Shown piece by piece: positions 38,901 to 54,302 of a DNA stretch of 64,000 nt. A program made the translations under genes and the position numbers. Position 1 is the first letter of the stretch. Each line of letters starts with the position of its first letter. The stretch comes from an uncultured virus (IMG/VR IMGVR_UViG_3300042564_000716). Lineage: Duplodnaviria; Heunggongvirae; Uroviricota; Caudoviricetes. The stretch lies in IMG/VR virus record IMGVR_UViG_3300042564_000716; one strand, 5' to 3'. The notes under the pieces were generated by a model, which worked only from the letters and a program-made list of their open reading frames with translations, had not been told where the DNA came from and searched no databases.

Positions 38901-39133
38901 TCCGGGTTGTTGGGCAAATTGTATAGTGAAATTTTTGGAATGGCTTTTATTTTTGCATGGGGGGTGTTTCCTGTGGGGGGATTTAGTTATGTATAGGTTG
39001 GATTTTGAGAGGTGGTGGCGGATACGCCACTCAGCGTAAAGGCACGCGCGGAGTCCCAGTTCACAGCGCGGGGGGCCGGGTACGGGTGGGTCGCGGCGGC
39101 TGGACTTTTAAGGTTAGAACATAGGTATAGGGG

Positions 39134-39162
39134 TTGACAATTAGCTATGGTTGAGTTACATT
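39134..39162 (+). promoter_or_regulatory. Early sigma70 promoter TTGACA-17-TACATT
   Basis: Consensus match upstream of the first plus-strand gene; followed by the hairpin TCTGAATC-AATTCC-GATTCAGA. Confidence 0.75.
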
Positions 39163-39209
39163 AAAGGCTCTGAATCAATTCCGATTCAGACAACCAAAAG
39201 GTAAATCAA

Positions 39210-39743
39210 ATGTCAGTAATCAATCAATCCCTCATTTCCGCTGTCATCAAGTCATTCGAAGGCGAAGCCAAGGCTATTGCCAAGGCGCGCACCTCACAGG
39301 ATCAAGCCATTCAAGCAACCCTTGACGCTATGCTGATTGCTTGTGACCAACCCAAGCCCCTTTTCATGAAGGGCAATGCTAAGACCAACGAAGCGCGCGG
39401 GCAGATCAAAGCCATGTTCGATGCCATTTGCGAAAAGGGTTTTATCTCCAAGTCATCGGCAGCATCTTATCAATCAGCGTTTTGGATTGCTTTTGAACAG
39501 GGCATTCCCTTTCAGCGTGACTTGAACAACAACAAAGCGAAGCCTGACACCACTGGCACAAGCGAAGCGAAGCCCACGACATCCGGCAAAGTGGAGACAA
39601 CCGACATCCCCGCGCTTCACAAAACCTTGTCAAAAGCATTGGCACAAGCCCGGATTTTGAATCAGTCAATTTTTGCGGCTGATTTGGTTGACCTGATCGT
39701 TGACACATGGCCTGACTTTAAAGAGACAGTGTTGGCGAAGTAA
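39210..39743 (+). CDS. First early gene, hypothetical helical protein
   Basis: 177 aa, AAGG ribosome-binding site, follows the promoter. Confidence 0.8.
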   Translation: MSVINQSLISAVIKSFEGEAKAIAKARTSQDQAIQATLDAMLIACDQPKPLFMKGNAKTNEARGQIKAMFDAICEKGFISKSSAASYQSAFWIAFEQGIPFQRDLNNNKAKPDTTGTSEAKPTTSGKVETTDIPALHKTLSKALAQARILNQSIFAADLVDLIVDTWPDFKETVLAK

Positions 39744-39793
39744 TCAACCCGGCCCGGCCTAGGCCGGGCCTTTAATCTTAAAGGAACAACCAA

Positions 39794-40030
39794 ATGAATG
39801 AATTGTATTTTCAACATGCTTTGGATTGCGGAATCAACATGACAGGCAAAACCACTTTGCCAATTGAAAACTCTGACGGCCGGTTGCTTATGTGCGATAT
39901 CATTGACCCTGAATCAAGGGATGTTGTTATCCATTCGGGCACGACATTGGACATTCAGCTTATCGAAATCTGCCAGTCCTATGGTGTCGATTACGCTATT
40001 GTATACAAGGGACGCCACACACCCGCTTAA
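39794..40030 (+). CDS. Early protein resembling the RNAP beta/beta' BBM2 module
   Basis: GRLLMCDIIDPESRDVVIHSGTTLDIQLIEICQSYGVDYAIV; AAGGA ribosome-binding site. Confidence 0.6.
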   Translation: MNELYFQHALDCGINMTGKTTLPIENSDGRLLMCDIIDPESRDVVIHSGTTLDIQLIEICQSYGVDYAIVYKGRHTPA

Positions 40031-40050
40031 CCCCTACTGGCTAACCCTAG

Positions 40051-40075
40051 GCCCGCCACCCGGCGGGCTTTTTTT
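40051..40075 (+). terminator. Rho-independent terminator
   Basis: GCCCGCC-ACCC-GGCGGGC-TTTTTTT. Confidence 0.85.
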
Positions 40076-40706
40076 CGTCTGGACTTTTCTGGCCCCGCCG
40101 CCGCGCGGGGCGCGTCATAGTAGTCGGACCGTGGGGGAGAGCGAGAGGGCGAGTGCGTGCAGCGGCAGGCGAGGGCGAGGGAGGGCGCAACGGCTCGGCG
40201 AAAGTTTTAAGCTTAAAGCTATTGGTAGTATCGCTACAATGCACAAAACAGGCGTCGCGTGTTACAAAACGCCTGTGCATCAAAGTAAAGATAATACTAA
40301 GCCTATTTTGTAATACTGCAGGTCTCAAAAACAGCAGAGAAGAGAGAGAGATAGAGATATATTATTTATTTATTGTATGTGTGTTACGGGCGTACAGACT
40401 TTTAATCATACCAATCCTTGGGAAGCTTTGGTCGTTTGCTCTTGGCATGTGGACGAAATTTTAAGCTTAAAAGTTTTGGGGGGCCCGGGCAGGCTGGTAG
40501 GGTTTCAAAACCCCGTTGCAACGTACACACATAGCAAGAGCTAAAACCACGTCACTCCGCAAATGGTGATTTCAGGGGGCTCCCAGCCGTTAGTATGTCC
40601 CCACTCGGCCTTTGTAACATAAAACGCACTTTCTGTGCGGCTGTAACGTACACACCACCACTAGATATGTGATATCATCCACACCTCACCAACCCCGAGG
40701 ACTACT

Positions 40707-41567
40707 ATGACTCCAGACACCAACCCCATGCGGCCCATCACCTTCAGCATCCCCCATGCCGTAGCCATCAAAATATCCGAATGGCACGAAGGCCCACTCG
40801 AAGATGCAGCACTCACCGCCCTGCGGCTCTACCACGGCATTGGCCCCACCGCGCACGCTGAACTCCTGCAGGCTGCCCAGATTCTTGGCATCAGCCAACT
40901 CAAAGCCATGCGAACTGCGATCGACATGTTCGTCGAACAGACCAGCAAGCTCAAGACCACCCCCCACCCCAAGGGCCGACCCGTCACCAACCAAGAGCGC
41001 GACACTGCCATATTCCTGCGCGTCACCGAAGGGGCAACCCAAGCAGCGGTGGCACACACGTTCAACATATCCATTGTGCGAGTCGGGCAGATCATGGCCC
41101 AGCAACGCGCACTGCGCGGACTCACATCCAACCGCAAACCCCGCACACCCAACCAAGGTCAACCACACACGAGCGCCCAACCGCAACCACAAACCCCAGA
41201 CATCGGCACACTCTTTGAGGCACTGGACTCCGGCATGACCCGCCTCACTGCAGCCACCACATACAACCTGACCATTGAGCAGGTCGAACGCGCCTATGCC
41301 GCGTACAAGGCAGACCTACCACTGAACCCAACCAAGGGAGACAAGGCATCTGCCACGTTCGCAGGCATCCATGCGACGGAAGAAGTTTTAACCTTAAAAC
41401 ATACCAACGGTATGGAAACGCCCGCACCACCCCCACGCAGGCTTGCAGTCATCCCACCATCCATGCGAGCCAAACCCGAAACCCTGCCGCCTCTCCCTGC
41501 AGACTCCACACCGGGCCAGTCTGCGGTGGACTTGATGAACAGCTTCCAACTGAGCGACCAACTATGA
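40707..41567 (+). CDS. Multi-HTH DNA-binding protein
   Basis: GATQAAVAHTFNISIVRVGQI and GMTRLTAATTYNLTIEQVERAY HTH-like segments. Confidence 0.7.
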   Translation: MTPDTNPMRPITFSIPHAVAIKISEWHEGPLEDAALTALRLYHGIGPTAHAELLQAAQILGISQLKAMRTAIDMFVEQTSKLKTTPHPKGRPVTNQERDTAIFLRVTEGATQAAVAHTFNISIVRVGQIMAQQRALRGLTSNRKPRTPNQGQPHTSAQPQPQTPDIGTLFEALDSGMTRLTAATTYNLTIEQVERAYAAYKADLPLNPTKGDKASATFAGIHATEEVLTLKHTNGMETPAPPPRRLAVIPPSMRAKPETLPPLPADSTPGQSAVDLMNSFQLSDQL

Positions 41568-41812
41568 CAACACCCATGCACACCCTTGAGCTCGAACTAT
41601 CGCTCGACGTGGCCGATGAACTCGCTGCCAAGGCTGGCAGTCTTGATGCGGCCGTGATCCAAGCTCTGCAGGACTATCTGCAGACGGAACCCAAACACAG
41701 GGCCACACGGGACAGGGCAGTCAAGCACCTCGTGACGAACGGCAAACCCATCGAGGAGGCTGCTGCAATCTTTGGCCTGACGCCGAAAGCCGTGAAAATC
41801 ATCGTGGAGTAG
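41564..41812 (+). CDS. Small DNA-binding protein (RHH-like plus HTH)
   Basis: C-terminal GKPIEEAAAIFGLTPKAVKII. Confidence 0.65.
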   Translation: MTTPMHTLELELSLDVADELAAKAGSLDAAVIQALQDYLQTEPKHRATRDRAVKHLVTNGKPIEEAAAIFGLTPKAVKIIVE

Positions 41813-41858
41813 CCAATCAGGGGGGCCAAAACGCCCCCCTACACATAGCAAATAACAC

Positions 41859-41887
41859 TTGACTTATGAGCTCTTTTGTGTTACAAT
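41859..41887 (+). promoter_or_regulatory. Strong sigma70 promoter TTGACT-17-TACAAT with extended -10
   Basis: Near-consensus elements with an AT-rich upstream tract. Confidence 0.8.
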
Positions 41888-41895
41888 ATGAGTCT

Positions 41896-41963
41896 GAGTG
41901 GGAAATCGTGCCCAACTCGCGGCCAGCCTTACATATCTGCGGCCCTGTTCCTTAACAACTTAT
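41896..41963 (+). promoter_or_regulatory. boxB-like hairpin plus boxA-like antitermination element
   Basis: GAGTGGG...CCCAACTC hairpin, then TGTTCCTTAACAACTTA, close to rrn boxA TGCTCTTTAACAATTTA. Confidence 0.55.
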
Positions 41964-42000
41964 ATACCGTTAGGATTAACCAAGACTTTTAAGGTTAAAA

Positions 42001-42512
42001 GTTCTTGGCTCCGATCAAGCCGCCGCTGCAATTGCAGAAATCGTTTAGTAGGAATTGCGCTGACAACAAGAAGGACATGGGACGAGCGTCGTGTAGGTAG
42101 ATTGACAGTCAATTAAACGACTGCATCTTATGCCAACCCACACAGCACGCAACGCCCAGCACACCCATAAGCAGACATGAGATCACTTCCCTCGATGAAT
42201 AGGCGTCCCGTGTAGCCGGGTCATGTGTGTGGAGTACCCCGATAGGCCAGAGTCAGCCGGGGGAAAGCATCATGCAATGCATATGCATACTACTTAAATG
42301 AGGGCGCTCCTCTCCGAGAAATCGTGACGAGCGCTAGGAAGCTGGAGACCTGTGACATGACAACCAGCATCTGGGATGTGGAACCGGCAAGCCGGGCTAA
42401 GCCACACCGACAACCTCTATCGTAGTCCAAGGACACCTCGCAAGAGGTGGCATCCTGAAGGGCATGGAGACTGACCTCCGTGTCCTTTGTGATGTGGCAA
42501 TTCCGCCATATC
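42001..42512 (+). ncRNA. Candidate large structured non-coding RNA
   Basis: No credible ORF; many stems including a GCAA tetraloop hairpin; bounded by two palindromic sites. Confidence 0.55.
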
Positions 42513-42530
42513 TTTTAAGGTTAAAAGATC

Positions 42531-42815
42531 ATGACTACCTTTGAATGGACTACCTCATCGCGGGGCTTCGCCAACTATATCTATCACGAGACCACAGAAG
42601 AACTGTCGCGCTCAGTAGGTATTGCAGGGATACACCACATACCAACCAAGAACTACTACCAAGTCAGCCTCAGCTATATGCTCAACGAGCTTGTGCCATC
42701 CAAGGCGTACATTTTCAAGCACAAGTTCCCAACGCTTGAAGCTGCCAAACGTGCAGTCGAGCGCAAAGTCCCGCCCCTCGTGGCTGTACTCAAGATGCAA
42801 GGAATAACCATATGA
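42531..42815 (+). CDS. Small early protein (TLEAAK family)
   Basis: ATG directly after a palindrome. Confidence 0.75.
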   Translation: MTTFEWTTSSRGFANYIYHETTEELSRSVGIAGIHHIPTKNYYQVSLSYMLNELVPSKAYIFKHKFPTLEAAKRAVERKVPPLVAVLKMQGITI

Positions 42816-43063
42816 AAACCACATGGCACAACGCCCCGGGCAGCAAGCAGCACTGGCTGTACAAGGGCTCATCAATCGGAGCATCGGGCGTCGTCGGGAT
42901 GATCTACGAGGTCAACCCCACTGCGTTCACTGTGTACAAAGAATACCCACAACAGACATGGGACATCGCTCGCCGCGAGTTCATCACGCAAGTCGAGACC
43001 TTGGAGGAAGCCCAAGGCTTGCTCCTCACCGTAGTCAACAGCCGCATGGAAGGTACATCATGA
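42812..43063 (+). CDS. Small early protein (TLEEAQ family)
   Basis: ATGA overlap with the previous gene. Confidence 0.75.
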   Translation: MKTTWHNAPGSKQHWLYKGSSIGASGVVGMIYEVNPTAFTVYKEYPQQTWDIARREFITQVETLEEAQGLLLTVVNSRMEGTS

Positions 43064-43185
43064 AGAAGTACAAAGGGCCAGCCAAGCCCATACCCACAAC
43101 CCGCGAGATCATTACCGACAAAGCCGAGCGTGTGATCTTCCTGCTGTTTGCCGTATTCATGGCCGTGTACCTGTTGGTGGAGTGA
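43060..43185 (+). CDS. 41-aa protein with a C-terminal TM helix
   Basis: MKKYKGPAK...VIFLLFAVFMAVYLLVE; ATGA overlap. Confidence 0.6.
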   Translation: MKKYKGPAKPIPTTREIITDKAERVIFLLFAVFMAVYLLVE

Positions 43186-43188
43186 GCC

Positions 43189-43476
43189 ATGAACATAGCC
43201 GACACCGTGATCTGGTGTGACCTAGCGCGCCGGGAGTTCGATGACCACATCCAGTGGGTGCCGAGCTGGTTGATAAGCCGAGATGATGTTCACCACTGGC
43301 GGTACAGCGTGCACCGATACCCATTCGTGCAGGGCTACCACCTCGTGCACTACCCCGGCGACGACGCAGATGACGACGACGATGTTGTCATCAGCACACA
43401 CAAGACACTGGCCGAGGCCATGTCCATCCTCAAACTCCTGCTGGCCAACGGCGGGGTTGTTTACTTCGACAACTAA
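43189..43476 (+). CDS. Small early protein (TLAEAM family)
   Basis: GGAG ribosome-binding site; acidic DDADDDDD run. Confidence 0.7.
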   Translation: MNIADTVIWCDLARREFDDHIQWVPSWLISRDDVHHWRYSVHRYPFVQGYHLVHYPGDDADDDDDVVISTHKTLAEAMSILKLLLANGGVVYFDN

Positions 43477-43494
43477 CTTTTAAGGTTAAAAGAA

Positions 43495-43707
43495 ATGACT
43501 GAACCCATCTGCCCCTCGTGCTACATCGAGGACATACCCCTGCCGCGCTACGCGCTCGGGTATCGCACATGCCTCACATGCGGTGAGAAGCAAGCCAAGA
43601 AGGTCAAGCACACCATCGCACCCATGCCCAAGAGTAACTACATGCTGTTCACAGACCTGTCGCTGCTCAAGGGACTTAACTCATCACACAAGGGAGGTTC
43701 GCTATGA
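43495..43707 (+). CDS. C4 Zn-finger protein, DksA/TraR-finger-like
   Basis: CPSC..EDIP..R...G..TCLTC. Confidence 0.65.
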   Translation: MTEPICPSCYIEDIPLPRYALGYRTCLTCGEKQAKKVKHTIAPMPKSNYMLFTDLSLLKGLNSSHKGGSL

Positions 43708-43910
43708 GATTAGAACACGGCTCGTTTATTCTTTTACAAGACGGCAAGGTCAATGTCTATGCATCCGACTACAACACCATCGTGGACCGACTCAACGCGC
43801 AGTATGCAAAGAATCCCGCCAGCGACTTCATCATCACGCAAGTGGTGGGCACAGTGGACAAACCCAAGGTGCCTGTCGTGCACTGCGTATACAACGCACA
43901 AAACCTTTAA
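43704..43910 (+). CDS. Small hypothetical protein
   Basis: GGAGG ribosome-binding site; the stop lies inside a palindrome. Confidence 0.7.
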   Translation: MRLEHGSFILLQDGKVNVYASDYNTIVDRLNAQYAKNPASDFIITQVVGTVDKPKVPVVHCVYNAQNL

Positions 43911-43929
43911 CCTTAAAAGAAAGCACATC

Positions 43930-44664
43930 ATGAACGCACACACCAAACTCACAATGCACCTGTCACGTCACGCATACAAGCGTGGCCAATTCAAAGGCGA
44001 CGCCCCTGCCGACTGCGGGCGCAGGGCTAAGACACACTTCCGTGTCATCAAGGGCAACGGCGGGACGATGCTGGTGCGTATGCACAACGCTGACCTCATC
44101 ACTGCCTACGAGGACGGGCGCATCAAACTGCACACCAACGGCTGGCACACATCACGCACAACCCGGGACTGCATGGGAGAGGCACTGACAAACTTCTTTG
44201 GGTGGGGGTATCTCCACAGCGTGCGTATGGGTGGCTACTCACAGACCGGCATCAAGATGAACGGCAAGACGTATCGCTACTATGACGGGATGGAATTCAG
44301 CGCCGACGGCGCACCACTCACATCGCTCAAGGTGTTCACAGCCAGACGCGCAGACCGTGAGGAAACCGCTGAGTTCCGCAAAGAAATCAAAGAGTCTGGG
44401 TTCGTTGGCATGTTCCCTATTCTGTACAACGCAGCCGGGGTTGCTGAAAACAGTTGGTTGTTACGCACTAAAGAAAAGATCACCGATGCAGACTCTGCCG
44501 ATTCATGGCCCGAGATTGTGTCGATATACAAATACCCAAGATACACCCACCGCATGAAGCTTATCCCTGCATACCCCGATCACAAAGCTGCACTGCGAGC
44601 AATCGTTGCAAGCTTCACCAAGAACATGACTAAGTTCGTCGATACCGACGTGACCGTCCTGTAA
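43930..44664 (+). CDS. Hypothetical protein (start MNAHTKL)
   Basis: IKLHTNGW.T.TTR...YRYYDGMEF; follows a palindrome. Confidence 0.75.
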   Translation: MNAHTKLTMHLSRHAYKRGQFKGDAPADCGRRAKTHFRVIKGNGGTMLVRMHNADLITAYEDGRIKLHTNGWHTSRTTRDCMGEALTNFFGWGYLHSVRMGGYSQTGIKMNGKTYRYYDGMEFSADGAPLTSLKVFTARRADREETAEFRKEIKESGFVGMFPILYNAAGVAENSWLLRTKEKITDADSADSWPEIVSIYKYPRYTHRMKLIPAYPDHKAALRAIVASFTKNMTKFVDTDVTVL

Positions 44665-44735
44665 GCCGAGCGCAAGCTCATTGTTTTAACCTTAAAACTT
44701 CTCTCAACTCTTTCACTTCAATCTAGGAAATCATC

Positions 44736-45797
44736 ATGAACGTCAATCTCAAGCAAGCCGCCACCCTCATCCGTAACGTGGGCTCCTCCAACACGCTCCT
44801 CCTGCGGGGCCAGCCCGGTATCGGCAAGTCCTCTATCCTGCAGACACTCGAACGTGACCTGCCTGACTATCAGGTGTGCTACATCGACGTGGCCAACCTC
44901 GACCTCGGTGACCTCGGCATGCCAGTCATCGACAAGGACACCATGACAACCAGCTACGCACCCAACGTGCGCTTCGGTGTGGGTAAGGGTCAGACACGCC
45001 CTGTCGTGCTCATGCTCGACGAGCTGGGCAAGGCGTCCCGCCCTGTGCTCAACATGCTGCTGCCTGTCATCCTCGAACATCGCATCGGTGATGTAGCTCT
45101 GCCTACTGGCTCTATTGTGTTCGGCACAACCAACCTCGACACTGACGGCGTGGGTGACAACATCCCTGCCCATGCGTTCAACCGCATGACTGTCGTGACT
45201 GTGGCTAACCCTACGGCCGACGAGTGGATCGAGTGGGCCTCATCGCACAGCGTAGCGCCCGAGATCATGGCGTTCGCCAAGCAGTATCCGCAGGTGTTCG
45301 ACTGCTATGCAGACCTCGACAAGAAGGACAAGAACCCCTACATCTTCAACCCCATGACGGGTAACATTCGGGCATTCTGCTCACCTCGCTCGCTGGCCAA
45401 GGCATCGAACCTCATCAAGCAGCGCAACGTGCTCGGCTCTGCCCTGCTGCCAGCCCTCGCAGGTACTGTCGGTGAAGCTGCGGCCCGTGACATGGAAGCC
45501 CTTGTGAATCTGGCCGATCAACTGCCGCTGTTCGAGACCATCGTGAAGCAACCACTCAAGGCCAAGGTGCCCGATGGTGCTGGTGCACTGTTCATCCTTG
45601 CATTCATGCTGGCGGGCCGAGTGGACGCTGACACCCTCGACCCTGTGATGGACTACGCCGAGCGCATGGCAGACGCATCGTTCGAGGCACACGCCCTGTT
45701 TATCACAGCGCTGGCATCCAACCGCACCAAGGTCGGTATGGCATGCAAGAACCGCAAGTTCACCGCAGCAGCCGCCAAGCTGGGCAAATACTTTTAA
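44736..45797 (+). CDS. MoxR-like AAA+ ATPase
   Basis: Walker A GQPGIGKS, Walker B LMLDE, sensor N, NR, SPRS. Confidence 0.9.
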   Translation: MNVNLKQAATLIRNVGSSNTLLLRGQPGIGKSSILQTLERDLPDYQVCYIDVANLDLGDLGMPVIDKDTMTTSYAPNVRFGVGKGQTRPVVLMLDELGKASRPVLNMLLPVILEHRIGDVALPTGSIVFGTTNLDTDGVGDNIPAHAFNRMTVVTVANPTADEWIEWASSHSVAPEIMAFAKQYPQVFDCYADLDKKDKNPYIFNPMTGNIRAFCSPRSLAKASNLIKQRNVLGSALLPALAGTVGEAAARDMEALVNLADQLPLFETIVKQPLKAKVPDGAGALFILAFMLAGRVDADTLDPVMDYAERMADASFEAHALFITALASNRTKVGMACKNRKFTAAAAKLGKYF

Positions 45798-45813
45798 GGT
45801 TAAAGGAATCACC

Positions 45814-46008
45814 ATGCTAATCATCGAATCAACCAGCAACGGCCAGCACATGGTCAAGATCAAGAAGGACTGGCACCCCGGCAGGATGGGGTCTCAGTAC
45901 ACACCGCCTCTGCGTAACTACGTGAGTGGGGACAGTGCCGAGCGCGTGCAGCGGGCACTGCTCAAGAAACCCGTGGCCTATCTCACCCCGTGGTGGGTGG
46001 GCAAGTAA
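45814..46008 (+). CDS. Small hypothetical protein
   Basis: Bounded by palindromes on both sides. Confidence 0.7.
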   Translation: MLIIESTSNGQHMVKIKKDWHPGRMGSQYTPPLRNYVSGDSAERVQRALLKKPVAYLTPWWVGK

Positions 46009-46611
46009 CTTTTAACCTTAAAACAATTGGAGAGAATCATGAGTGAGAACGCTTTCGATATGGTGCGCAAAATACGCCACCTTCCCGGCTTGAAACTGAC
46101 GGCAGTTATTGAGCCTCAACGCATCACCAAGCGCGTGAAGAACGCCGCGCAGAAGATGCTACGTACTGGTGTTCTAGCGAACGGGTACACCAGCAAGTCT
46201 CGTATGTTGGCTGAGCAGTTGTTAAGTGCCGCTGGCCTACAAGCCTCTGCAACCAACACAAAGTGGGGGGTTCGTATCTTTGATGCTGGCCAACTCACCG
46301 AGGATGATCGCGCGCAGATCGTAGAGTTTATCCAAGCTGCGCGGATGATCGAGCTGGCCAGTACGACCAGTAATAACTCGTACGTACACGACCGGTACAC
46401 AAGCCTAGTGAACCAGTTCAATAGACAGAGTGGCGGGCAGTTCGCGTTCAACATGTATCAGCCAGAACTGCAAGCACAGCTTACTGAGCTGGTGGCCGCA
46501 CGTCGCACCCCCGAGCAGGTCAAGGCACACGAGGCACTGGCCGACAGGCTCGACAGTACTGAACCCATCCACATCAACTTTTAACCTTAAAACAATTGGA
46601 GAGAATCATGA
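46007..46611 (+). repeat. 36-bp perfect direct repeat (46007-46042 and 46576-46611)
   Basis: AACTTTTAACCTTAAAACAATTGGAGAGAATCATGA occurs twice. Confidence 0.95.
46039..46584 (+). CDS. Hypothetical protein flanked by the direct repeat
   Basis: ATG lies in repeat 1 and the stop in repeat 2. Confidence 0.8.
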   Translation: MSENAFDMVRKIRHLPGLKLTAVIEPQRITKRVKNAAQKMLRTGVLANGYTSKSRMLAEQLLSAAGLQASATNTKWGVRIFDAGQLTEDDRAQIVEFIQAARMIELASTTSNNSYVHDRYTSLVNQFNRQSGGQFAFNMYQPELQAQLTELVAARRTPEQVKAHEALADRLDSTEPIHINF

Positions 46612-47810: not shown

Positions 47811-47836
47811 AACTTTTAAGGTTAAAGGAATTCATC

Positions 47837-49069: not shown

Positions 49070-49323
49070 GATATCAAGTAACTGTCAGCGGCAAAACTAT
49101 CTTGTTAACCCAGCACCAACTGGAAATTCTGATGACCGCAGTGCAAGACGCAGAGCAGATCGGAGAGCAACACGTAGGCAACGGCAAGGGGTCGCAGGGC
49201 TATCAAAAAGCCTACGTACCCACTATTGAGACCAAGCAACCACACGAATGGCTGTCAGTGTTTGTCGTTGCTGACGACTTCGTTGATGCCACCAAACTGG
49301 CAATGAAACTTACCACCGAATAA
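49066..49323 (+). CDS. Small hypothetical protein
   Basis: GAGGAG upstream and ATGA overlap. Confidence 0.7.
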   Translation: MRYQVTVSGKTILLTQHQLEILMTAVQDAEQIGEQHVGNGKGSQGYQKAYVPTIETKQPHEWLSVFVVADDFVDATKLAMKLTTE

Positions 49324-49341
49324 CTTTTAAGGTTAAAAGAA

Positions 49342-50262
49342 ATGAACTACATCACTGACACCCAACCCAGCACCGTAGCCGGTGTTGCTCGCTCCGCCAT
49401 GATGGTGGACCTGCACATCTCCGTGTACTCGGGGCGCAAGCAGGACAAGACCACGCAAGGCGAGGTCACCACGGCCAAGGGCTCCGGCTCGAAGAAGGCT
49501 GCGTCCGTGTACAAGAACTTGTTTGCTGAGTGCAAAGAACTCGACGACTTGACCAAGTTCCAAGCCCGGGCCCGCGCTGAGCACTACCGCCTGACACTGC
49601 CGTGGAATGACCAAGGCGCACGGCTGTTACCCACTGCGTCACTGCTGGAGTACCAGCAGACCATGGGCCGGTATCGCAACGAGTTCGAGCGACTGGTGGA
49701 CGCGTTCCTTGACAAGTACGACACGCTGGTTGCGGCCGCTGCGTTTCAGCTCGGCACGCTGTTCGATCGCCAAGAGTACCTGTCCCGCGCTCAGGTGGCG
49801 CTGCGCTTTCGTATGGAGTCGAGCTTCACACCACTGCCTACCTCGGGTGACTTCCGCCTTGACGTGGAGAGCTCAGTGCAGCGTGATCTGGTCGAGCAGT
49901 ACGAGCGCCGCATGGAGGCCAAGCTGGCACAGGCTAACCAAGACTCGTGGAGTCGCTTGCACGAAGCCCTACTGCGTTTGTCTGATCGGCTGATCGTCGA
50001 TGAGGATGGCAAGAAGCGCAAGTTTCACGACACGATGGTGACAGGTGCACTGGAGCTGTGTGACCTGCTGACCGTGATGAACGTCACCAAAGACCCGCAG
50101 CTTGAGTCAGCGCGCCGTAAGGTTGAGGAGGTATTGTCCGGTGTAACACCAAAGGAATTGCGAGATGAAGACAGCACACGTATCCAAACCAAGCAGAGAG
50201 TCGATGCCATCCTCGACGCCTTCGACTGGGGAGACACACCAGATGAGATCGTGGAGGTTTAA
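49342..50262 (+). CDS. Helical protein, DUF3150-like
   Basis: HYRLTLPW...GARLLP...NVTKDPQLE; this type usually accompanies AAA/vWA pairs. Confidence 0.65.
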   Translation: MNYITDTQPSTVAGVARSAMMVDLHISVYSGRKQDKTTQGEVTTAKGSGSKKAASVYKNLFAECKELDDLTKFQARARAEHYRLTLPWNDQGARLLPTASLLEYQQTMGRYRNEFERLVDAFLDKYDTLVAAAAFQLGTLFDRQEYLSRAQVALRFRMESSFTPLPTSGDFRLDVESSVQRDLVEQYERRMEAKLAQANQDSWSRLHEALLRLSDRLIVDEDGKKRKFHDTMVTGALELCDLLTVMNVTKDPQLESARRKVEEVLSGVTPKELRDEDSTRIQTKQRVDAILDAFDWGDTPDEIVEV

Positions 50263-50299
50263 AGATGCCGCACGCCAATACAGCAACACAAGAAAACAC

Positions 50300-50554
50300 A
50301 TGCAACAAACACACGAACGCGAATACAGATACGAAGAACGGTACGACGAGTACATGCTCAAGTGCTGGCATGACGGCGTTGAGACCTCATGGCGAGGGGG
50401 CATGGACTCACGGCCTAAATGGCTTGAGCGCATCCTTGTTACAGCAACGGTTGGAGGGCACCTCAAGCGTGTCGCCCAACCCCCGCCCGACGCCATCGTC
50501 TGGTTCACCACCGACCTCGACAACAACCTCTTAACTTTTTTGGAGCTTACATGA
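50300..50554 (+). CDS. Small hypothetical protein
   Basis: Fills the gap; the start is uncertain. Confidence 0.55.
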   Translation: MQQTHEREYRYEERYDEYMLKCWHDGVETSWRGGMDSRPKWLERILVTATVGGHLKRVAQPPPDAIVWFTTDLDNNLLTFLELT

Positions 50555-50715
50555 TCTACGACAACTTAACGGACAAAGAGCTGCTACGAGTAGCTGACGG
50601 CCAAGCAGGGCTTATCAAAGCCCTTGCCGAACGATTGGAGATGCGCTTGCGAGACATCGAAGATCAAAACAAATCCACCCCGGTCGAAGACGACCGTCAA
50701 CTTAAATTGTTTTAA
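50551..50715 (+). CDS. 54-aa protein ending in QLKLF (not in the ORF track)
   Basis: GGAG ribosome-binding site; MIYDNLTDKELLRVAD...EDDRQLKLF*. Confidence 0.75.
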   Translation: MIYDNLTDKELLRVADGQAGLIKALAERLEMRLRDIEDQNKSTPVEDDRQLKLF

Positions 50716-50727
50716 GGTTAAAAGTTT

Positions 50728-51249
50728 ATGCCCGATCTCAAATCTGAACTGAGCAAAGTGCTCAACGAATGGAATCCCTCGGAGACAACTATGACGCAAC
50801 CCGCAGCGCCCGCAGCCACGCCATACTTCACCATAAGCAACAACGTGTGCCGCACCACGTTTGCCTTCGTGCAAGACAACCCCGGCAAGACCCGTACAGA
50901 GGTGGCCAAGGCGCTGGCGCAACAAGGCTACAAGACCGGTTCTGTGTCCTCACTGCTGGGGCAGATGCTCAAGCAAGGCATGTTGCGCGAGAGTGCACAC
51001 CTGCTGTACGCCAGACAAGACGAGTACACCCCGTTGAAATCAACCAAGGCACTCAAGGCGATGTCTGAGAAGCCTCAAGAACAACAGCGCAAGATCGTCA
51101 AGATTGTCAACCCCAACACAGGGAAAGTGCTCAACCCAACACTTGCACCCGTAGAAAAAGAGTGGTCACCGAACGATGTGATCGACAAGCTGACGGTGCA
51201 CCAAGCACTCGCACTGTTCAAAGAGTTACGTAACATTTTGGTGGGGTGA
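50728..51249 (+). CDS. Winged-helix DNA-binding protein
   Basis: NPGKTRTEVAKAL...SVSSLLGQMLKQGML. Confidence 0.7.
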   Translation: MPDLKSELSKVLNEWNPSETTMTQPAAPAATPYFTISNNVCRTTFAFVQDNPGKTRTEVAKALAQQGYKTGSVSSLLGQMLKQGMLRESAHLLYARQDEYTPLKSTKALKAMSEKPQEQQRKIVKIVNPNTGKVLNPTLAPVEKEWSPNDVIDKLTVHQALALFKELRNILVG

Positions 51250-51341
51250 AGCATGAATACATGCAAACACATGTGGGAGCCCATCATTGGGCCGGGAATG
51301 TACAGGTGCGCCCGATGCGGTGCGTTTAGGAGGATCATCAA

Positions 51342-51563
51342 ATGAGCAACACAAACACAGGTGGGCCAGCGTTTCCATTTGTATGTGACGCTGACTTTGA
51401 CTACGGCACAGGCATGACCATGAGGGACTACTTTGCAGCCAAGGCGATGCAGGGTCTTGTGGAGCGCAATAAAAATCTTGACCTTACACCACACGAAGCC
51501 TGCGTCACGTCCGTATTTGCCTATCAAATGGCAGATGCAATGCTGAAAGCGAGGGAAGCATGA
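51342..51563 (+). CDS. Small conserved phage protein
   Basis: GGPAFP...GMTMRDYFAAKAMQG...AYQMADAMLKAR. Confidence 0.85.
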   Translation: MSNTNTGGPAFPFVCDADFDYGTGMTMRDYFAAKAMQGLVERNKNLDLTPHEACVTSVFAYQMADAMLKAREA

Positions 51564-51666
51564 AACTAAAAACAATCCTGATCGGCGGGGCTGTTGCCTC
51601 TGCCGTGGTGTCCATCACCCTGATGTGGGGTGTGTGGACGGGTATTGCTTATTTGATGGAGGCTGT

Positions 51667-51870
51667 ATGAGAGATGTGATTGAGATGGCCCGTGAAGTCA
51701 AGATGCCCTATGACTTTGTAACTGGTGAGCCAATCTACCTTGAAAAGTTGAAAGACTTTGAAGCCCTTGTCCGTGCTGATGAGCGTGAGGTGGTTGAGGA
51801 TTTGCTGAAGGAATATGACATGGTTAACTCGGCATTTGCCAAAGATTTCCGAAACAGGGGTGACAAATGA
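51667..51870 (+). CDS. Small hypothetical protein (paralog of the next gene)
   Basis: IEMARE...FEALVRADERE. Confidence 0.7.
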   Translation: MRDVIEMAREVKMPYDFVTGEPIYLEKLKDFEALVRADEREVVEDLLKEYDMVNSAFAKDFRNRGDK

Positions 51871-52181
51871 AAACCACGATAGACATGGCCCGTGAGGCTG
51901 GCTTCCCGTTTAACAAGTACGGATTGCTGCAGGGTGACGATGGCGGTGAAATTGATGCCGACAAGATGTTCGAAGCCTTCGCCGCCCTTGTCCGTGCTGG
52001 TGAGCGCGAAGAATTTCAACGGTGGTTTGATGCTGTGACAGCGCAGCACAAGCAATTAATTCTTGCCGAGCGTGAGGCGTGTGCAAAGGTGTGTGATGCC
52101 CGATACATGGGTGACAACAATCGTGAAGACACGGAGTCAAGGAGATGCGCCGAAGCAATCCGAGCAAGGGGAAACACATGA
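51867..52181 (+). CDS. Small hypothetical protein
   Basis: IDMAREAG...FAALVRAGERE...EREACAKVCD. Confidence 0.75.
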   Translation: MKTTIDMAREAGFPFNKYGLLQGDDGGEIDADKMFEAFAALVRAGEREEFQRWFDAVTAQHKQLILAEREACAKVCDARYMGDNNREDTESRRCAEAIRARGNT

Positions 52182-52696
52182 AAGCACAGCCAACAACAAA
52201 ACAACTTATTGAGATGCTGTATGAGCGACTGCCTGAATTGTTTGACCGAGCCAAAGCACAGCCAGCACCTGTGCAGCCTGTGGCGTGGGTCCCCGTAACT
52301 GAGACATTGCTGCACGAACAGCACGCTTGGCTTTACGAGACAATGTGGATTGCCATGAAAGATGGCCGAGTGTTGAAGGGCCGCTATGAGTGGAGGCAGG
52401 GCCGCAAACCTGATCGTTTTTATTCCGATGGTGCTGGCGATGAATGGGCTTATGCCGCATCTCATGTCATGCCGCTGCAAGCACCCGCGCACCCAAGCAC
52501 CACCCCACCCGCAGCACAACCAGCACCTGCGCCAATGGCGCACATCGTGGGTGAGATTGACCACAATGGCAAAGTGTGGACACCCGCACAGCCAGCCGTG
52601 CCTGATGCGTTTGGAACGCGAGAGGGTGAGCATCCCCAATACATCCAAGGCTGGAACGACTGCCGGGCAGAAACTTTAAAGATGAGGAAGCCATGA
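52178..52696 (+). CDS. Mosaic hypothetical protein with AQPA repeats
   Basis: QPVAW...YIQGWNDCRA modules; ATGA overlap. Confidence 0.65.
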   Translation: MKAQPTTKQLIEMLYERLPELFDRAKAQPAPVQPVAWVPVTETLLHEQHAWLYETMWIAMKDGRVLKGRYEWRQGRKPDRFYSDGAGDEWAYAASHVMPLQAPAHPSTTPPAAQPAPAPMAHIVGEIDHNGKVWTPAQPAVPDAFGTREGEHPQYIQGWNDCRAETLKMRKP

Positions 52697-52860
52697 CAAA
52701 AGAAGAAGCCCTCGCAGCCATCAAGCTGCTGTCCGCACTGGAGTCGTGGAGCTTCAGCTTAAAACAGACCATACCCGACTACCTGCACGAAGACCTTTGC
52801 AGGTCAATGGAAGTGCTGGAGAAGATTGTTTTGGAGCAACAAAGAAATGCGCAAGCGTAG
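52693..52860 (+). CDS. 55-aa hypothetical protein (not in the ORF track)
   Basis: GAGGA ribosome-binding site; MTKEEALAAIKLLSALESW. Confidence 0.65.
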   Translation: MTKEEALAAIKLLSALESWSFSLKQTIPDYLHEDLCRSMEVLEKIVLEQQRNAQA

Positions 52861-53329
52861 CAAGTACAAACCCAAGGGCGTACGCCTTGACAACATGGCG
52901 TGGGTGCAGTCGGGCCTTCGCCGAGTTGAGGACGTTAGCGAGAGCGCCACGATCAAGATCAGGAACCACGACGCGATGAACACCTTGCGGCTGGGCACTG
53001 CGACGAGAGCAGAGATTGACATCATCATCAGCGCGCTTAACGTGGCTGAAGCACTGGCCGACAGGGGGTGGGGCAAAGACTGGAAGCCGGAGATTCGCAC
53101 GGGCCAAGACGCATTGCTTGCGCTGGCTAAGCGAGGTGTGGCCAACTCCATGCGGTTTATTGTCAAGGGTGAAGAACTCAAGGCACTGAACCTGTGCATG
53201 GAGGTGCATGACGCGCAGCTTGAAGCTGTCACTGTGCGCGAATTAGAGCTTGCCATGGACGACGTAATAGCGGCCCAGCGTTTAAAGAAGATGCGGCATA
53301 TTGTGGAGACTCCCCATGCTGGTGTCTGA
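52847..53329 (+). CDS. Hypothetical protein (start MRKRSKYKPK)
   Basis: GGAG ribosome-binding site; helical pattern. Confidence 0.7.
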   Translation: MRKRSKYKPKGVRLDNMAWVQSGLRRVEDVSESATIKIRNHDAMNTLRLGTATRAEIDIIISALNVAEALADRGWGKDWKPEIRTGQDALLALAKRGVANSMRFIVKGEELKALNLCMEVHDAQLEAVTVRELELAMDDVIAAQRLKKMRHIVETPHAGV

Positions 53330-53606
53330 TCTTGTCCAGTACGACTCCGTACTAAACTGTTTTGTTTTGAAAGCTCCTATGTATAAGCAACCCACATGGC
53401 CCGACGGCACAATCAAGTCCATGAACAACGTGTTCAACTGGCGCGCGGGCACCACGGACTCTTCATCCTTAAAACCCAAGGCAACCAATGGCAGATCAAA
53501 AGACCTCAACTCCACTGGCAACATCAACACGTACAGCAAAGCCAGCGTCACTCGTATCCCCTACGGTCGAACTAAAAAGCTTGAAAACTATTCGGCCAAA
53601 ATATGA
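53316..53606 (+). CDS. Hypothetical protein
   Basis: GGAG upstream of the ATG; fills the gap. Confidence 0.5.
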   Translation: MLVSDLVQYDSVLNCFVLKAPMYKQPTWPDGTIKSMNNVFNWRAGTTDSSSLKPKATNGRSKDLNSTGNINTYSKASVTRIPYGRTKKLENYSAKI

Positions 53607-53662
53607 TTCGACGTGGCCCTTCCGCGTCGTTTACGGCACTATCCCAACCATGAAAGAAAACC

Positions 53663-53917
53663 ATGCAGCAAATTGAAATGTTCCCCGATTTGGAAACCAG
53701 CGCCGACGACATACAGGTCAGCGGCAACCACTACAAGGATATGCCCATCCAACCTTGGCACATCATGGAGGCCGTGCTGACAAACGAGGAGTTTGTTGGG
53801 TTTCTTAAAGGCAACGTGATTAAGTACAGCCTGCGGGCTGGGCGCAAGGACGGCACCGATGACGCTGGCAAGGCCAAGCACTACATGCAGAAGCTCAAAG
53901 AAGTTCGGGGGTACTGA
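53663..53917 (+). CDS. DUF3310 (SaV-like) protein
   Basis: QVSGNHYK...GFLKGNVIKYSLRAGRK...DAGKAKHY. Confidence 0.85.
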   Translation: MQQIEMFPDLETSADDIQVSGNHYKDMPIQPWHIMEAVLTNEEFVGFLKGNVIKYSLRAGRKDGTDDAGKAKHYMQKLKEVRGY

Positions 53918-53918
53918 G

Positions 53919-54302
53919 ATGGCAACGCCTGAAGCAAAAGTCAAGAAGTACATCCATGCGCTGCTCAAGGCGCATGGGGCCTACGCCGTCAACTACATTG
54001 GTGGGGTCAGTGCCAACAACGGAACGCCGGACATCCTTGCGTGTCTCAACGGGCGGTTCATCGGCATCGAAGCCAAGGCTGGTAAGAACAAGCCCACCGA
54101 CCTGCAAACTATTAACCTTAAAAGAATTGACGAAGCTGGTGGCCTTGCACTGGTCATCAACGAAACATGTCTTGTTACTTTGGAGTTAATGTTACGTGAC
54201 CCAATCCAAGCCCGATCCAATTACCACCTTTTTGCAAAACCACTCACCGAAGCTGACGGTGGAGCAAAAGCGCCAGCTAAACGCAAACCTAAAGAGGCGT
54301 GA
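53919..54302 (+). CDS. VRR-NUC nuclease / Holliday-junction resolvase-like
   Basis: TPEAKVK...GTPDI...FIGIEAKA...PTDLQ...GGLALVIN. Confidence 0.88.
   Translation: MATPEAKVKKYIHALLKAHGAYAVNYIGGVSANNGTPDILACLNGRFIGIEAKAGKNKPTDLQTINLKRIDEAGGLALVINETCLVTLELMLRDPIQARSNYHLFAKPLTEADGGAKAPAKRKPKEA

What the first reader, a model, noticed from the sequence alone, without database searches (positions are those of the whole stretch)
39106..54123. Early region punctuated gene by gene by a 14-bp palindrome (TTTTAA-NN-TTAAAA): cassette-like system
Seen: about 17 copies (39106, 39770, 40205, 40459, 41386, 41987, 42513, 43478, 43905, 44684, 45792, 46010, 46579, 47814, 49325, 50710, degenerate 54110) of an AT-rich dyad in a GC-rich genome. 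I noticed none in the 39-kb structural arm. The arms are nearly invariant while the central 2 bp vary (GG/CC, i.e. both orientations, also GC and TC). Most copies sit exactly at gene junctions: the left arm often supplies the upstream stop (...GKYF*, ...HINF*, ...QLKLF*, ...QNL*) and the right arm runs into the next ribosome-binding site or ATG. Two copies lie inside coding sequence and one sits just upstream of the first early promoter. Inference: orientation independence and dyad symmetry point to a site for a dimeric DNA-binding protein or recombinase rather than an RNA signal. It could be a distributed operator/roadblock network silencing the early region (candidate binders 40707, 41564, 50728, 60735), an entry or nucleoid-organising signal, or recombination joints that shuffle accessory genes as cassettes.
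Basis: partly seen in the sequence, partly recalled or inferred. Interest (0 to 1): 0.9.

Follow-up and report, generated by a model that had tools for sequence, protein, structure and literature searches.

The report
Lineage-specific palindromes at phage gene junctions
A 14-base mirror-image DNA word sits in nearly every gap between the early genes of an uncultured lake phage, and each related phage lineage uses its own version of it, which points to a phage-made DNA-binding regulator that is not yet proven.

Summary
TTTTAA-NN-TTAAAA occurs 10 times exactly (0.00 expected). At up to 2 mismatches there are 18 matches (0.9 expected), and 17 of them lie at 39106-54123. Eleven of these 17 lie 0-40 nt upstream of a start codon. 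The motif is one version of a clade-wide feature. Of 51 related viral contigs, 40 carry at least 5 copies of a palindrome of their own, placed at the same gene junctions. Even copies inside coding sequence switch with lineage. No promoter signal flanks the sites, the RNA hairpin is no more stable than shuffled sequence, and no integrase or resolvase was found.

Best reading, about 0.5: the sites are dispersed operators for a phage-encoded dimeric DNA-binding protein acting on early transcription. The best candidate is the 40707 product, with a ribbon-helix-helix-like dimer domain plus an HTH. That link is only correlative, and two motif classes have no detectable homolog. Candidates 50728 and 60735 are disfavoured. 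Gene-block boundaries do fall on the sites, probably as a by-product. An earlier finding of this scan (e1-5973259) reached the same reading on another genome of this clade.

The parts
39106..39119 (.). site 1 (TTTTAAGGTTAGAA, 1 mismatch), 14 nt upstream of the -35 of promoter P_E1
   Evidence: A palindrome, often degenerate, sits just upstream of the orthologous promoter in G002, G003, G005 and G006, at 0-14 nt from the -35.
39134..39162 (+). sigma-70-like promoter P_E1 (TTGACA-17-TACATT) of the first rightward gene, 39210-39743
   Evidence: Conserved in 5 of the 6 genomes scanned.
39751..39770 (+). GC-rich terminator-like hairpin whose T-tract is the left arm of site 2
39770..39783 (.). site 2 (CTTTAATCTTAAAG, 2 mismatches that are complementary to each other), 10 nt before ATG 39794
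40049..40070 (+). terminator-like hairpin ending the first early unit
40205..40218 (.). site 3, first of a pair spaced about 250 bp apart upstream of the candidate regulator gene
   Evidence: The pair recurs with similar spacing in L133, L134, L135 and L142.
40459..40472 (.). site 4 (exact, GC centre), 234 nt upstream of ATG 40707
40707..41567 (+). candidate binder, 286 aa: ribbon-helix-helix-like N-terminal dimer domain (residues about 6-83) and an HTH (residues about 95-137)
41386..41399 (.). site 5 (exact, CC), inside the 40707 gene, read as EVLTLK; kept in G002 and G003 although the surrounding protein diverges
41564..41812 (+). 82-aa short paralog of the 40707 product (same strand-helix N-terminus and HTH), found only in this motif class
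   Evidence: hhalign probability 95.6, E 1.1e-8
41859..41887 (+). sigma-70-like promoter P2 (TTGACT-17-TACAAT, TG before the -10), the likely start of the long rightward operon
   Evidence: Conserved in all 6 genomes, with a site centre 134.5-152.5 bp downstream of the -35 in five of them (G006: 86 bp upstream).
41987..42000 (.). site 6 (exact, GG) in the conserved P2 leader
42513..42526 (.). site 7 (exact, GG), 4 nt before ATG 42531
43478..43491 (.). site 8 (exact, GG), after stop 43476, 3 nt before ATG 43495
43905..43918 (.). site 9 (1 mismatch, CC); its TAA ends 43704-43910; 11 nt before ATG 43930
44684..44697 (.). site 10 (exact, CC), 38 nt before the AAA ATPase gene 44736-45797
45792..45805 (.). 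site 11 (1 mismatch, GG); its TAA is the ATPase stop; 8 nt before ATG 45814
46007..46042 (+). 36-nt junction module (site 12 at 46010-46023, an SD-like GGAGA, then ATG), first copy of a perfect direct repeat
46576..46611 (+). second copy of the 36-nt junction module (site 13 at 46579-46592), before the DUF2201 gene; the two copies bracket gene 46039-46584
   Evidence: The gene is absent from G002 and G005.
47814..47827 (.). site 14 (1 mismatch, GG), 9 nt before ATG 47837
49325..49338 (.). site 15 (exact, GG), 3 nt before ATG 49342 (306-aa conserved protein)
50710..50723 (.). site 16 (exact, GG); its TAA ends 50551-50715; 4 nt before ATG 50728
54110..54123 (.). site 17 (1 mismatch, CC) inside the Hjc-like endonuclease gene 53859-54302; the orthologous position in G004 carries that lineage's palindrome

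Best explanation
The 17 copies are a dispersed set of operator-like DNA sites for a phage-encoded, sequence-specific protein that binds as a dimer and acts on transcription of the rightward early/middle arm. The full site is about 20-22 bp: AAAC, then 6-bp arms around a free 2-bp centre, then G/C and, in related classes, TTT.

Shown:
- The sites are non-random and confined to the first 12-15 kb of the rightward arm.
- They occupy the short gaps between stop codon and ribosome-binding site.
- Related phages keep a site at the same places while changing its sequence in concert.

Inferred:
- The reader of the sites is a dimeric DNA-binding protein.
- The most likely one is the product of 40707, an early gene bracketed by three copies.
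- Once made, it occupies the site beside promoter P_E1 and the junction sites downstream of P2. There it damps or blocks host RNA polymerase, as an autoregulated early shut-off or roadblock.
- The direction of the effect, repression or something else, is not shown.

Secondary consequences in this lineage:
- The left arm is reused as the upstream stop codon.
- The GG-centred form is reused as the Shine-Dalgarno sequence.
- The near-identical junctions act as crossover points where genes are gained, lost or swapped.
For: 1. Non-random and arm-specific. Searches give the counts above. In five complete relatives, 0 of 82 sites (16+14+21+17+14, at up to 1 mismatch) lie in the structural arm.

2. 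Concerted, lineage-specific change. Only 10 of 51 related loci carry this motif. However, 40 of 51 carry at least 5 exact copies of a palindrome of their own, 5 more carry 3-4 copies, and 6 carry 2 or fewer. Examples are TCTAA-N2-TTAGA, TCTAATATTAGA, ATCTAA-N3-TTAGAT, TCTTAA-N2-TTAAGA, TTATAA-N2-TTATAA, TTCTAA-N2-TTAGAA and CTAACA-N0/1/2-TGTTAG.

3. Same places, different word. The junctions before the ATPase, DUF2201, 306-aa and 244-aa genes carry the local palindrome in each class. The same upstream gene allele is followed by a different palindrome in genomes of different class. So the class is a property of the genome, which points to a trans-acting factor.

4. Selection on the DNA itself. 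The in-gene sites 41386 and 54110 are kept, and the 54110 ortholog switches to the class-B word at the cost of amino-acid changes.

5. Dyad with a free centre and symmetric AAA...TTT flanks. There is no information beyond about 6 nt on either side, so the motif is not part of a larger promoter.

6. A copy lies beside the -35 of P_E1, outside the rightward transcript, in WIN, G002, G003, G005 and G006.

7. The candidate protein.
- The HTH is modelled with block pLDDT of 86-91, in a model with mean pLDDT 71.1 and pTM 0.34.
- The homodimer prediction scored 0.72 (runs 0.73, 0.72, 0.70) against a best control of 0.00. That mark was reached by 20 of 30 proteins solved as pairs of one chain and by 1 of 23 solved as single chains. 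The runs agree in at least 75% of contacts, and partner pLDDT is at least 73.
- The interface covers residues 6-83, with residues 9-14 paired antiparallel, as in ribbon-helix-helix dimers. Such dimers are common among solved structures, so the pass may reflect likeness only.
- The family was found in 20 loci of classes A, B, B2, D, E and F.
- The recognition helix reads S[IL]VR[VI]GQ in 6 of 6 class-A loci, S..R.[TVS]Q in class B, and S[EL][IV]R[VI]HQ in classes D/E/F.
- In classes A, C, D and F, 2-4 sites cluster around the gene at this position, which in class C shows no detectable homology to 40707.

8. The other HTH candidates have class-invariant recognition helices.
Against: - No binding was measured, and the link between protein and site is correlative, resting on only 3-4 independent class changes.
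- The recognition helix does not separate classes D, E and F, although their genomes are almost pure for TCTTAA, TTATAA or TTCTAA (19 of 20, 16 of 18, 22 of 22 arms).
- The two protein subtypes cut across those classes.
- A search for class-discriminating columns in 18 protein families of that sub-clade found none convincing.
- The family profile matched only 1 of 5 further complete genomes. Class C (G006) and class H (G007-G009) have palindromes but no detectable member (hhalign probability 0.5 for the syntenic G006 protein).
- L154 mixes two arm types, with 4 hybrid sites of 10, so recognition may be loose at arm positions 2-3.
- All sites lie in the rightward-transcribed region directly 5' of ribosome-binding sites, centre orientation is biased (D: CC 25 vs GG 6; H2: AA 18 vs TT 3), and the 5' flank AAAC is not mirrored. 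All of this would also fit an RNA-level role.
- No consensus promoter lies between P2 (41859) and P3 (59370). Full roadblocking would therefore also shut off the replication genes.
- The phage looks lytic, unlike the known stoperator systems.
Confidence: 0.5

Rival explanations
1. RNA-level signal. The transcribed copy, a weak AU mini-hairpin directly 5' of the ribosome-binding site, is bound or cut by a phage-encoded RNA-binding protein or endoribonuclease. That protein would control translation or processing of the long polycistronic early mRNA. This would be analogous to T4 RegA/RegB acting at early translation-initiation regions (recalled, not checked here).
For: - All sites but 39106 lie in the rightward transcription units. 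Eleven of 17 lie 0-40 nt before a start codon, and 0 of 20000 permutations reached that.
- In this class the GG form carries the Shine-Dalgarno: 38 of 57 GG sites have ATG within 4 nt, against 0 of 31 CC sites. Fourteen of the 25 CC sites that have a start codon carry their own SD-like sequence.
- Centre orientation is biased and the AAAC 5' flank is asymmetric.
- Arm changes keep complementarity in every class.
Against: - The hairpin is marginal, at -2.1 kcal/mol, with z-scores of -0.29 and -0.93 against shuffles, and is not formed at the 46010 site.
- The copy beside the P_E1 -35, conserved in position class by class, is outside the rightward transcript.
- The palindromes of other classes carry no SD-like sequence, so the ribosome-binding role is a local add-on.
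- No RNA-binding or RNase candidate was found, and Rfam gave nothing.
- The strand composition skew of this arm could explain the centre bias.
Confidence: 0.2
2. Recombination linkers. The palindromes are mainly conserved junction sequences at which phage recombination, possibly helped by breaks at small cruciforms cut by the Hjc-like nuclease, exchanges gene cassettes. Within-genome uniformity then comes from repeated crossing-over rather than from a binder.
For: - Ten of 15 blastn block ends between the window and G002 in 42.5-50.8 kb fall within 20 nt of a site (my count).
- A perfect 36-nt junction repeat brackets gene 46039-46584, which G002 and G005 lack.
- The same cassette allele sits next to different palindromes.
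- L154 has hybrid left and right arms at 4 of 10 sites.
- One lake-metagenome contig joins 49338, the end of a site, to 42811, a gene start, at depth 3.4 (table 5c).
Against: - Sites coincide with gene boundaries, where phage mosaic joints fall anyway. No control separating the two was run.
- 14-22 bp is short for homologous exchange.
- No integrase or resolvase was found in 0 of 5 complete relatives.
- This reading does not explain the palindromy, the restriction to the early arm, the copy beside the P_E1 -35, or the sites conserved inside coding sequence.
- L154 is 70-87% identical to all sampled relatives in every segment, so its hybrids cannot be traced to crossovers.
- The single contig joint was found at likeness 88, where the tool warns of other organisms and repeats.
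Confidence: 0.15
3. The motif is a promoter or recognition element for a phage-specific RNA polymerase or sigma factor, like the roughly 20-bp promoters of T7-like phages that also sit at gene junctions and co-vary with the polymerase (recalled).
For: Copy number, junction placement and lineage-specific concerted change resemble phage-specific promoters. The 40707 product has a weak Sigma70_r4 match (E 0.0025, below the cut-off).
Against: - The element is a dyad found in both centre orientations.
- Start codons follow within 2-4 nt at 38 of 57 GG sites, leaving no room for a leader.
- No RNA polymerase gene turned up among the 69 window proteins scanned against PHROGs.
- Three strong sigma-70 promoters are conserved instead.
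Confidence: 0.05
4. The sites are bound by a host protein, such as a nucleoid-associated protein or global regulator, and lineages differ because their hosts differ.
For: AT-rich dyads in a 52-63% GC genome. Motif classes partly follow GC content.
Against: Classes D, E and F have 48-50% GC and ATPases 90-96% identical, yet use three different words. At least ten classes exist within one phage clade from similar lake samples.
Confidence: 0.05

Closest known systems
Stoperators and operators of Cluster A mycobacteriophages (L5, Bxb1, Trixie). PMC6550527: passages read. PMC9283540: abstract start seen in the listing.
   Same: There are 20-30 short repressor sites spread through the genome. Most are not at promoters but between genes, where they block elongation. 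Each phage has its own consensus, and that consensus co-varies with the repressor across relatives.
   Different: Stoperators are asymmetric, oriented with transcription, bound by a monomeric immunity repressor, present in both arms, and belong to temperate phages. Here the sites are dyads, are confined to the early arm (0 of 82 in structural arms), and no integrase or resolvase was found.
KorA/KorB global operator network of IncP-1 plasmid RK2. PMC11790492: passages read. The numbers of sites on RK2 are recalled, not checked.
   Same: Short AT-ended palindromic operators (core sequences OA and OB given in the paper's methods) are dispersed over a roughly 60-kb mobile element. Some lie far from promoters. 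They are read by dimeric HTH regulators that coordinate the whole element's expression.
   Different: KorB is a ParB-type CTP-dependent sliding clamp. No ParB-like domain was seen in the 37 early-arm proteins scanned against Pfam. The sites here sit at stop/RBS junctions and change word between close relatives.
PeSLs (promoter-early stem-loops) of T4-type phages. PMC2839356: abstract read.
   Same: A repeated junction element lies between small non-essential early genes. Recombination between copies explains insertions, deletions and replacements between related phages.
   Different: PeSLs are composite elements made of a strong sigma-70 promoter and a terminator stem-loop. Here no -35/-10 information flanks the motif and the hairpin is not stable.
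Phage Mu Mor/C activators (PDB 1rr7, 9l0x, 9l0y; titles seen)
   Same: Small phage regulators with an N-terminal dimer domain and a C-terminal HTH that read dyad sites. The family profile gave a weak match to Mu C (E 0.1, HTH region).
   Different: The similarity is not significant. Mor/C sites lie at a fixed place overlapping the -35 of a few promoters (recalled). Here no -10 follows the sites, and start codons follow within a few bases.
phiC31 repressor and its conserved inverted repeats (recalled; my search found no paper describing them in the held library)
   Same: As recalled: about 17-bp inverted repeats at many intergenic places of the early region, bound by one phage repressor.
   Different: phiC31 is temperate.

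Membership tests
Cluster A stoperator system | many (20-30) dispersed copies of one short site, mostly between genes and not at promoters | tested here: met
   17 copies. 11 lie at stop/RBS junctions and only 1 beside a promoter.
Cluster A stoperator system | [quoted passage not shown] | tested here: not met
   The arms are a perfect dyad, and centres occur in both orientations (class A: GG 57, CC 31).
Cluster A stoperator system | immunity repressor of a temperate phage (integrase or parABS present) | tested here: not met
   PF00589 and PF00239 were found in 0 of 5 complete relatives. No ParB-like hit among the scanned proteins.
Cluster A stoperator system | site consensus co-varies with the repressor among relatives | tested here: inconclusive
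   The recognition helix differs between classes A, B and D/E/F but not within D/E/F. No homolog was found in classes C and H.
PeSL regulatory cassettes | strong sigma-70 promoter within the repeat | tested here: not met
   No information content beyond about 6 nt of flank in 108 unique class-A sites. The promoter scan found only 4 sites in 17 kb, none at junction motifs.
PeSL regulatory cassettes | stable stem-loop acting as terminator | tested here: not met
   -2.1 kcal/mol, z-scores -0.29 and -0.93.
PeSL regulatory cassettes | recombination between copies creates indels and replacements | tested here: inconclusive
   Block ends fall at sites and a 36-nt repeat brackets a gene, but this is confounded with gene boundaries.
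Integron gene cassettes (attC/IntI) | tyrosine integrase acting on the cassette sites | tested here: not met
   PF00589 in 0 of 5 complete relatives, with the control ringing in 14 of 14 genomes.
Integron gene cassettes (attC/IntI) | long imperfect palindromes at cassette 3' ends (lengths recalled) | tested here: not met
   The element is 14-22 bp with perfect arms.
KorA/KorB-type global operator network | short palindromic operators dispersed over the element | tested here: met
   No ParB-like Pfam hit among the 37 early-arm proteins scanned.
Ribbon-helix-helix (CopG/Arc/MetJ-like) regulators, for the 40707 product | N-terminal strand pairs antiparallel with the partner's strand in an intertwined dimer | tested here: inconclusive
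   Predicted only. Residues 9-14 pair with 9-14; score 0.72 against a control of 0.00. The PDB profile matches to ORF56 and CopG have E 0.71 and 0.87. Atlas neighbours with RHH_10+HTH_23 scored 0.85, which is a lead only.
Mor/C transcription activators, for the 40707 product | significant sequence or fold similarity | tested here: not met
   Profile E 0.1 to Mu C. Foldseek E 0.46-0.95, and no match at E 0.001 or better.

The most novel reading that the evidence does not exclude
The palindromes form a junction code with two roles. Each lineage's word is read by a co-evolving phage regulator that gates transcription at every cassette boundary. The same near-identical junctions are also the crossover points for gene exchange. 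Motif class would then define recombination-compatibility groups, a gene-flow barrier that can arise by a one- or two-base switch, among phages that co-occur in the same lakes. The nearly pure genomes, the same cassette allele carrying the resident word, the hybrid-arm genome L154 and the bracketing 36-nt repeat are all compatible with this reading.
Probability: 0.15. Interest if true: 0.85.

Novelty: new variant of a known kind. Interest (0 to 1): 0.66.

Why it matters
Dispersed operator sets are known from temperate mycobacteriophages and from IncP plasmids. This would be a symmetric, early-arm-only version in lytic-looking, uncultured freshwater phages.

- It is present in most of a large clade: 40 of 51 relatives carry at least 5 copies.
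- The recognised word turns over fast, with three different words among phages whose ATPases are 90-96% identical.
- That gives a natural series for studying how a protein and about 15 target sites change specificity together.
- It also shows extreme junction economy, with one 14-bp word acting as stop codon, ribosome-binding site and regulatory site.
- It offers a concrete way to test whether regulatory repeats drive modular gene exchange in phages.

For annotation, the lineage word is a cheap marker of early-gene boundaries in these metagenomic phages.

Tried and rejected
- Megablast of 12 kb and 20 kb of the window against isolated phages found no match. By protein, the nearest isolates are only 25-37% identical: DNA polymerase to Rhizobium and Pseudomonas phages, ATPase to N4-like phages. 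The 39210 product had no match.
- The nearest held record, G001, covers only the structural arm and has no motif.
- No tRNA genes and no Rfam family.
- No RNA holder was listed among the sequencing runs, so expression could not be examined.
- Laying DNA contigs of 4 lake runs gave many fragmentary joints. Only one touches a site (49338 to 42811, depth 3.4, found at likeness 88), so it is not decisive.
- 39210 product as binder: rejected. Its variants do not follow motif class and it has no DNA-binding signature.
- 60735 product (HTH_3, 24.7 bits against a cut-off of 23): rejected as the class-specific reader. Its recognition helix is the same in classes A, B, B2 and C.
- 50728 product (weak MarR/winged-helix-like hits, E 0.028-0.063): rejected for the same reason, across 19 sequences.
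- A column-wise search for residues separating classes D, E and F in 18 families found none convincing.
- A segment-wise identity test of L154 as a recent recombinant found no parental pattern.
- Pfam on 30 early ORFs of classes C and H found no HTH.
- The search for related loci with the family alignment was not possible, because the alignment has no conserved stretch.
- The top hits of the PDB profile search were designed helical-repeat proteins (E 1.2e-7). I read these as helical-repeat likeness, not homology.
- Foldseek against the PDB gave no match at E 0.001 or better.
- Literature searches found no description of this feature in the held library. Paywalled papers are not covered, and no supplements were consulted.

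Full report
**What is there.** The pattern TTTTAA-NN-TTAAAA has 10 exact matches in the 64-kb window, where shuffles give none. At up to 2 mismatches there are 18 matches against 0.9 expected. The eighteenth, 17085 with 2 mismatches, is the only one in the leftward structural arm and is within chance. The centres are GG x8, CC x6, GC x2 and TC x1.

**The phage.** The window is a tailed phage.
- The leftward structural arm carries terminase, portal, head and tail genes.
- The rightward arm begins at about 39.1 kb. It carries small early genes, an AAA ATPase, a DUF2201/VWA protein, DNA polymerase, exonuclease, helicase and primase.
- No close isolate exists.
- Near-identical DNA is held by lake-water metagenomes.

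**Placement of the sites.**
- Eleven of the 17 sites end 0-40 nt before a start codon. Random positions give a mean of 1.44, and 0 of 20000 permutations reached 11.
- The TAA of the left arm is the upstream stop at five sites.
- The motif is not at every junction. It fills almost every real gap between 42.5 and 50.7 kb. Overlapping genes and the replication module from 51 to 64 kb lack it.
- Two copies are inside genes: 41386 and 54110.
- One copy, 39106, ends 14 nt before the -35 of the first rightward promoter.
- Strong sigma-70-like promoters at 39134, 41859 and 59370 are conserved in relatives: the latter two in all six genomes scanned, the first in five of the six. Terminator-like hairpins follow the first two genes.
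- Pooling 108 unique class-A sites, the conserved unit is AAAC-TTTTAA-NN-TTAAAA-G/C. Nothing is conserved further out, so the motif is not part of a larger promoter.
- As RNA the hairpin is worth only -2.1 kcal/mol and is no better than shuffled sequence.

**The key comparative result.** The ATPase found 51 related viral contigs at 25-100% identity.
- Only the 10 closest (88% identity or more) carry this motif.
- Yet 40 of the 51 carry at least 5 exact copies of some other palindrome, 5 more carry 3-4 copies, and 6 carry 2 or fewer.
- The words fall into classes: TCTAA-N2-TTAGA, TCTAATATTAGA, ATCTAA-N3-TTAGAT, TCTTAA-N2-TTAAGA, TTATAA-N2-TTATAA, TTCTAA-N2-TTAGAA, CTAACA-N0/1/2-TGTTAG and a few more.
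- In five complete relatives, all 82 sites (at up to 1 mismatch) lie in the rightward arm.
- Orthologous junctions, before the ATPase, DUF2201, 306-aa and 244-aa genes, carry the local word in each class.
- The same upstream gene allele is followed by different words in genomes of different class.
- The in-gene copy at 54110 is replaced in G004 by that lineage's word, changing the encoded residues.

The word is therefore a property of the genome, selected at the nucleotide level. This points to a phage-specific reader.

**Local add-ons in this lineage.** GG-centred sites are used as the ribosome-binding site: 38 of 57 have ATG within 4 nt. No CC-centred site does (0 of 31), and 14 of the 25 CC sites that have a start codon carry their own SD-like sequence. 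Other classes' words contain nothing SD-like, so this is a secondary use.

**Who reads the sites.**
- The 39210 product does not follow class.
- The 60735 product (HTH_3) and the 50728 product (weak winged-helix-like hits) have recognition helices that stay the same across classes.
- The 40707 product is the best candidate. A profile of 15 homologs models an HTH at residues 95-137 with block pLDDT of 86-91, in a model with mean pLDDT 71.1 and pTM 0.34.
- The homodimer prediction scored 0.72 (runs 0.73, 0.72, 0.70) against a best control of 0.00. That mark was reached by 20 of 30 proteins solved as pairs of one chain and by 1 of 23 solved as single chains. The runs agree in at least 75% of contacts, and partner pLDDT is at least 73.
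- The interface is residues 6-83, with 9-14 paired antiparallel, which is the ribbon-helix-helix pattern. This supports a dimer but does not show one, and it may reflect likeness to solved RHH dimers.
- Sequence and fold searches gave only weak hints: Mu C at E 0.1, CopG and ORF56 at E 0.7-0.9, and no Foldseek match at E 0.001 or better. The atlas neighbours are leads only.
- The 41564 product is a short paralog.
- The family occurs in 20 loci of classes A, B, B2, D, E and F.
- Its recognition helix differs between A (6 of 6 with G), B (T/V/S) and D/E/F (H).
- In classes A, D and F, 2-4 sites cluster around the gene; in class C they cluster around the syntenic gene, which shows no detectable homology.

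**Evidence against that assignment.**
- The helix does not separate D, E and F, although those genomes are nearly pure for their word.
- Protein subtypes cut across those classes.
- No class-discriminating protein was found in that sub-clade.
- Complete genomes of classes C and H have palindromes but no detectable family member.
- L154 mixes two arm types, with 4 hybrid sites of 10, so recognition at arm positions 2-3 may be loose.

I put the 40707 product specifically at about 0.3, and a phage-encoded dimeric DNA binder of some kind at about 0.5-0.55.

**What it does.** The direction of regulation is inferred, not shown. The sites have no promoter geometry. The copy near P_E1 varies from 0 to 14 nt from the -35 between classes, which speaks against helical-phase-dependent activation. 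Start codons follow too closely for the sites to be upstream activator sites. That leaves occupancy-type effects: autoregulated repression or roadblocking of host polymerase through the early arm, as for stoperators or the KorA/KorB operators. One difficulty is that no consensus promoter lies between 41859 and 59370, so a full block would also stop the replication genes.

**Recombination.**
- Homology blocks between the window and G002, G003 and G004 break at the sites. By my count, 10 of 15 block ends in 42.5-50.8 kb versus G002 lie within 20 nt of a site.
- A perfect 36-nt junction module occurs twice and brackets gene 46039-46584, which G002 and G005 lack.
- One metagenome contig joins the end of site 49325 to gene start 42812, but this is weak evidence.
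- No integrase or resolvase exists in five complete relatives.

I read this as recombination at short repeated junctions, as with PeSLs. It is a by-product or second role rather than a dedicated cassette machine. Because sites and gene boundaries coincide, this was not separated.

**Prior work in this scan and in print.** An earlier finding (e1-5973259) on another genome that shares ATPase words with this one reached the same reading, a lineage-specific palindrome with the binder unidentified. The present session adds the class catalogue, the SD co-option, the test of candidates and a named candidate protein. My literature searches found analogues but no description of this feature in the held library.

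**Verdict.** The feature is a new variant of dispersed operator networks, with an unproven reader and mechanism.

Noticed in passing
window 29828-30646 (- strand), beside the major head gene 30754-31662: A free-standing GIY-YIG-type homing endonuclease gene (phrog_314, E 1.7e-27) lies inside the structural arm next to the head gene.
   Followed up: no
G002:C1:56440-57114 and 57994-58860: The large terminase of a close relative matches in two pieces (residues 1-225 and 216-505) within one 818-codon open frame. This suggests an in-frame insertion such as an intein.
   Followed up: no
window 59370-59397: A strong sigma-70-like promoter (TTGACG-16-TATAAT, TG before the -10) lies at the 3' end of the helicase gene. 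It is conserved in all six genomes examined and has no palindrome nearby.
   Followed up: partly
window 50728-51249: A conserved early protein begins MPDLKSE and has a serine/threonine-rich winged-helix-like segment. It is present in classes A, B, B2, D, E and F, and the putative recognition helix hardly varies. It is probably a second DNA-binding protein with a different, conserved target.
   Followed up: partly
window 40051-40082 (loose ends of runs X8 and X14): Lake contigs match the window up to the terminator at 40049-40070 and then continue with another class's palindrome (the CTAACA-type). Phages of different motif class therefore co-occur and share this terminator segment (table 7).
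   Followed up: no
G004 (rotated coordinates 2908-3715; same contig as L138): The homolog of the candidate regulator is split over two overlapping frames in G004, whereas the near-identical L139 has one open frame. This is a frameshift or an assembly error.
   Followed up: no
window 41894-42530: About 640 nt downstream of promoter P2 has no convincing gene but is conserved in relatives, including a GATCAAGCCGCCG-like stretch right after site 41987. A G005 relative has three sites, each followed by an alanine-rich repeat coding stretch, reminiscent of the tetrapeptide-repeat paralogs of earlier finding e1-6227967.
   Followed up: no
L154 (G010) 7136-16231: One relative mixes two arm types: 12 TTATAA and 8 TTCTAA arms, with 4 hybrid sites of 10. 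It is a natural intermediate or tolerant lineage that would be useful for specificity tests.
   Followed up: partly
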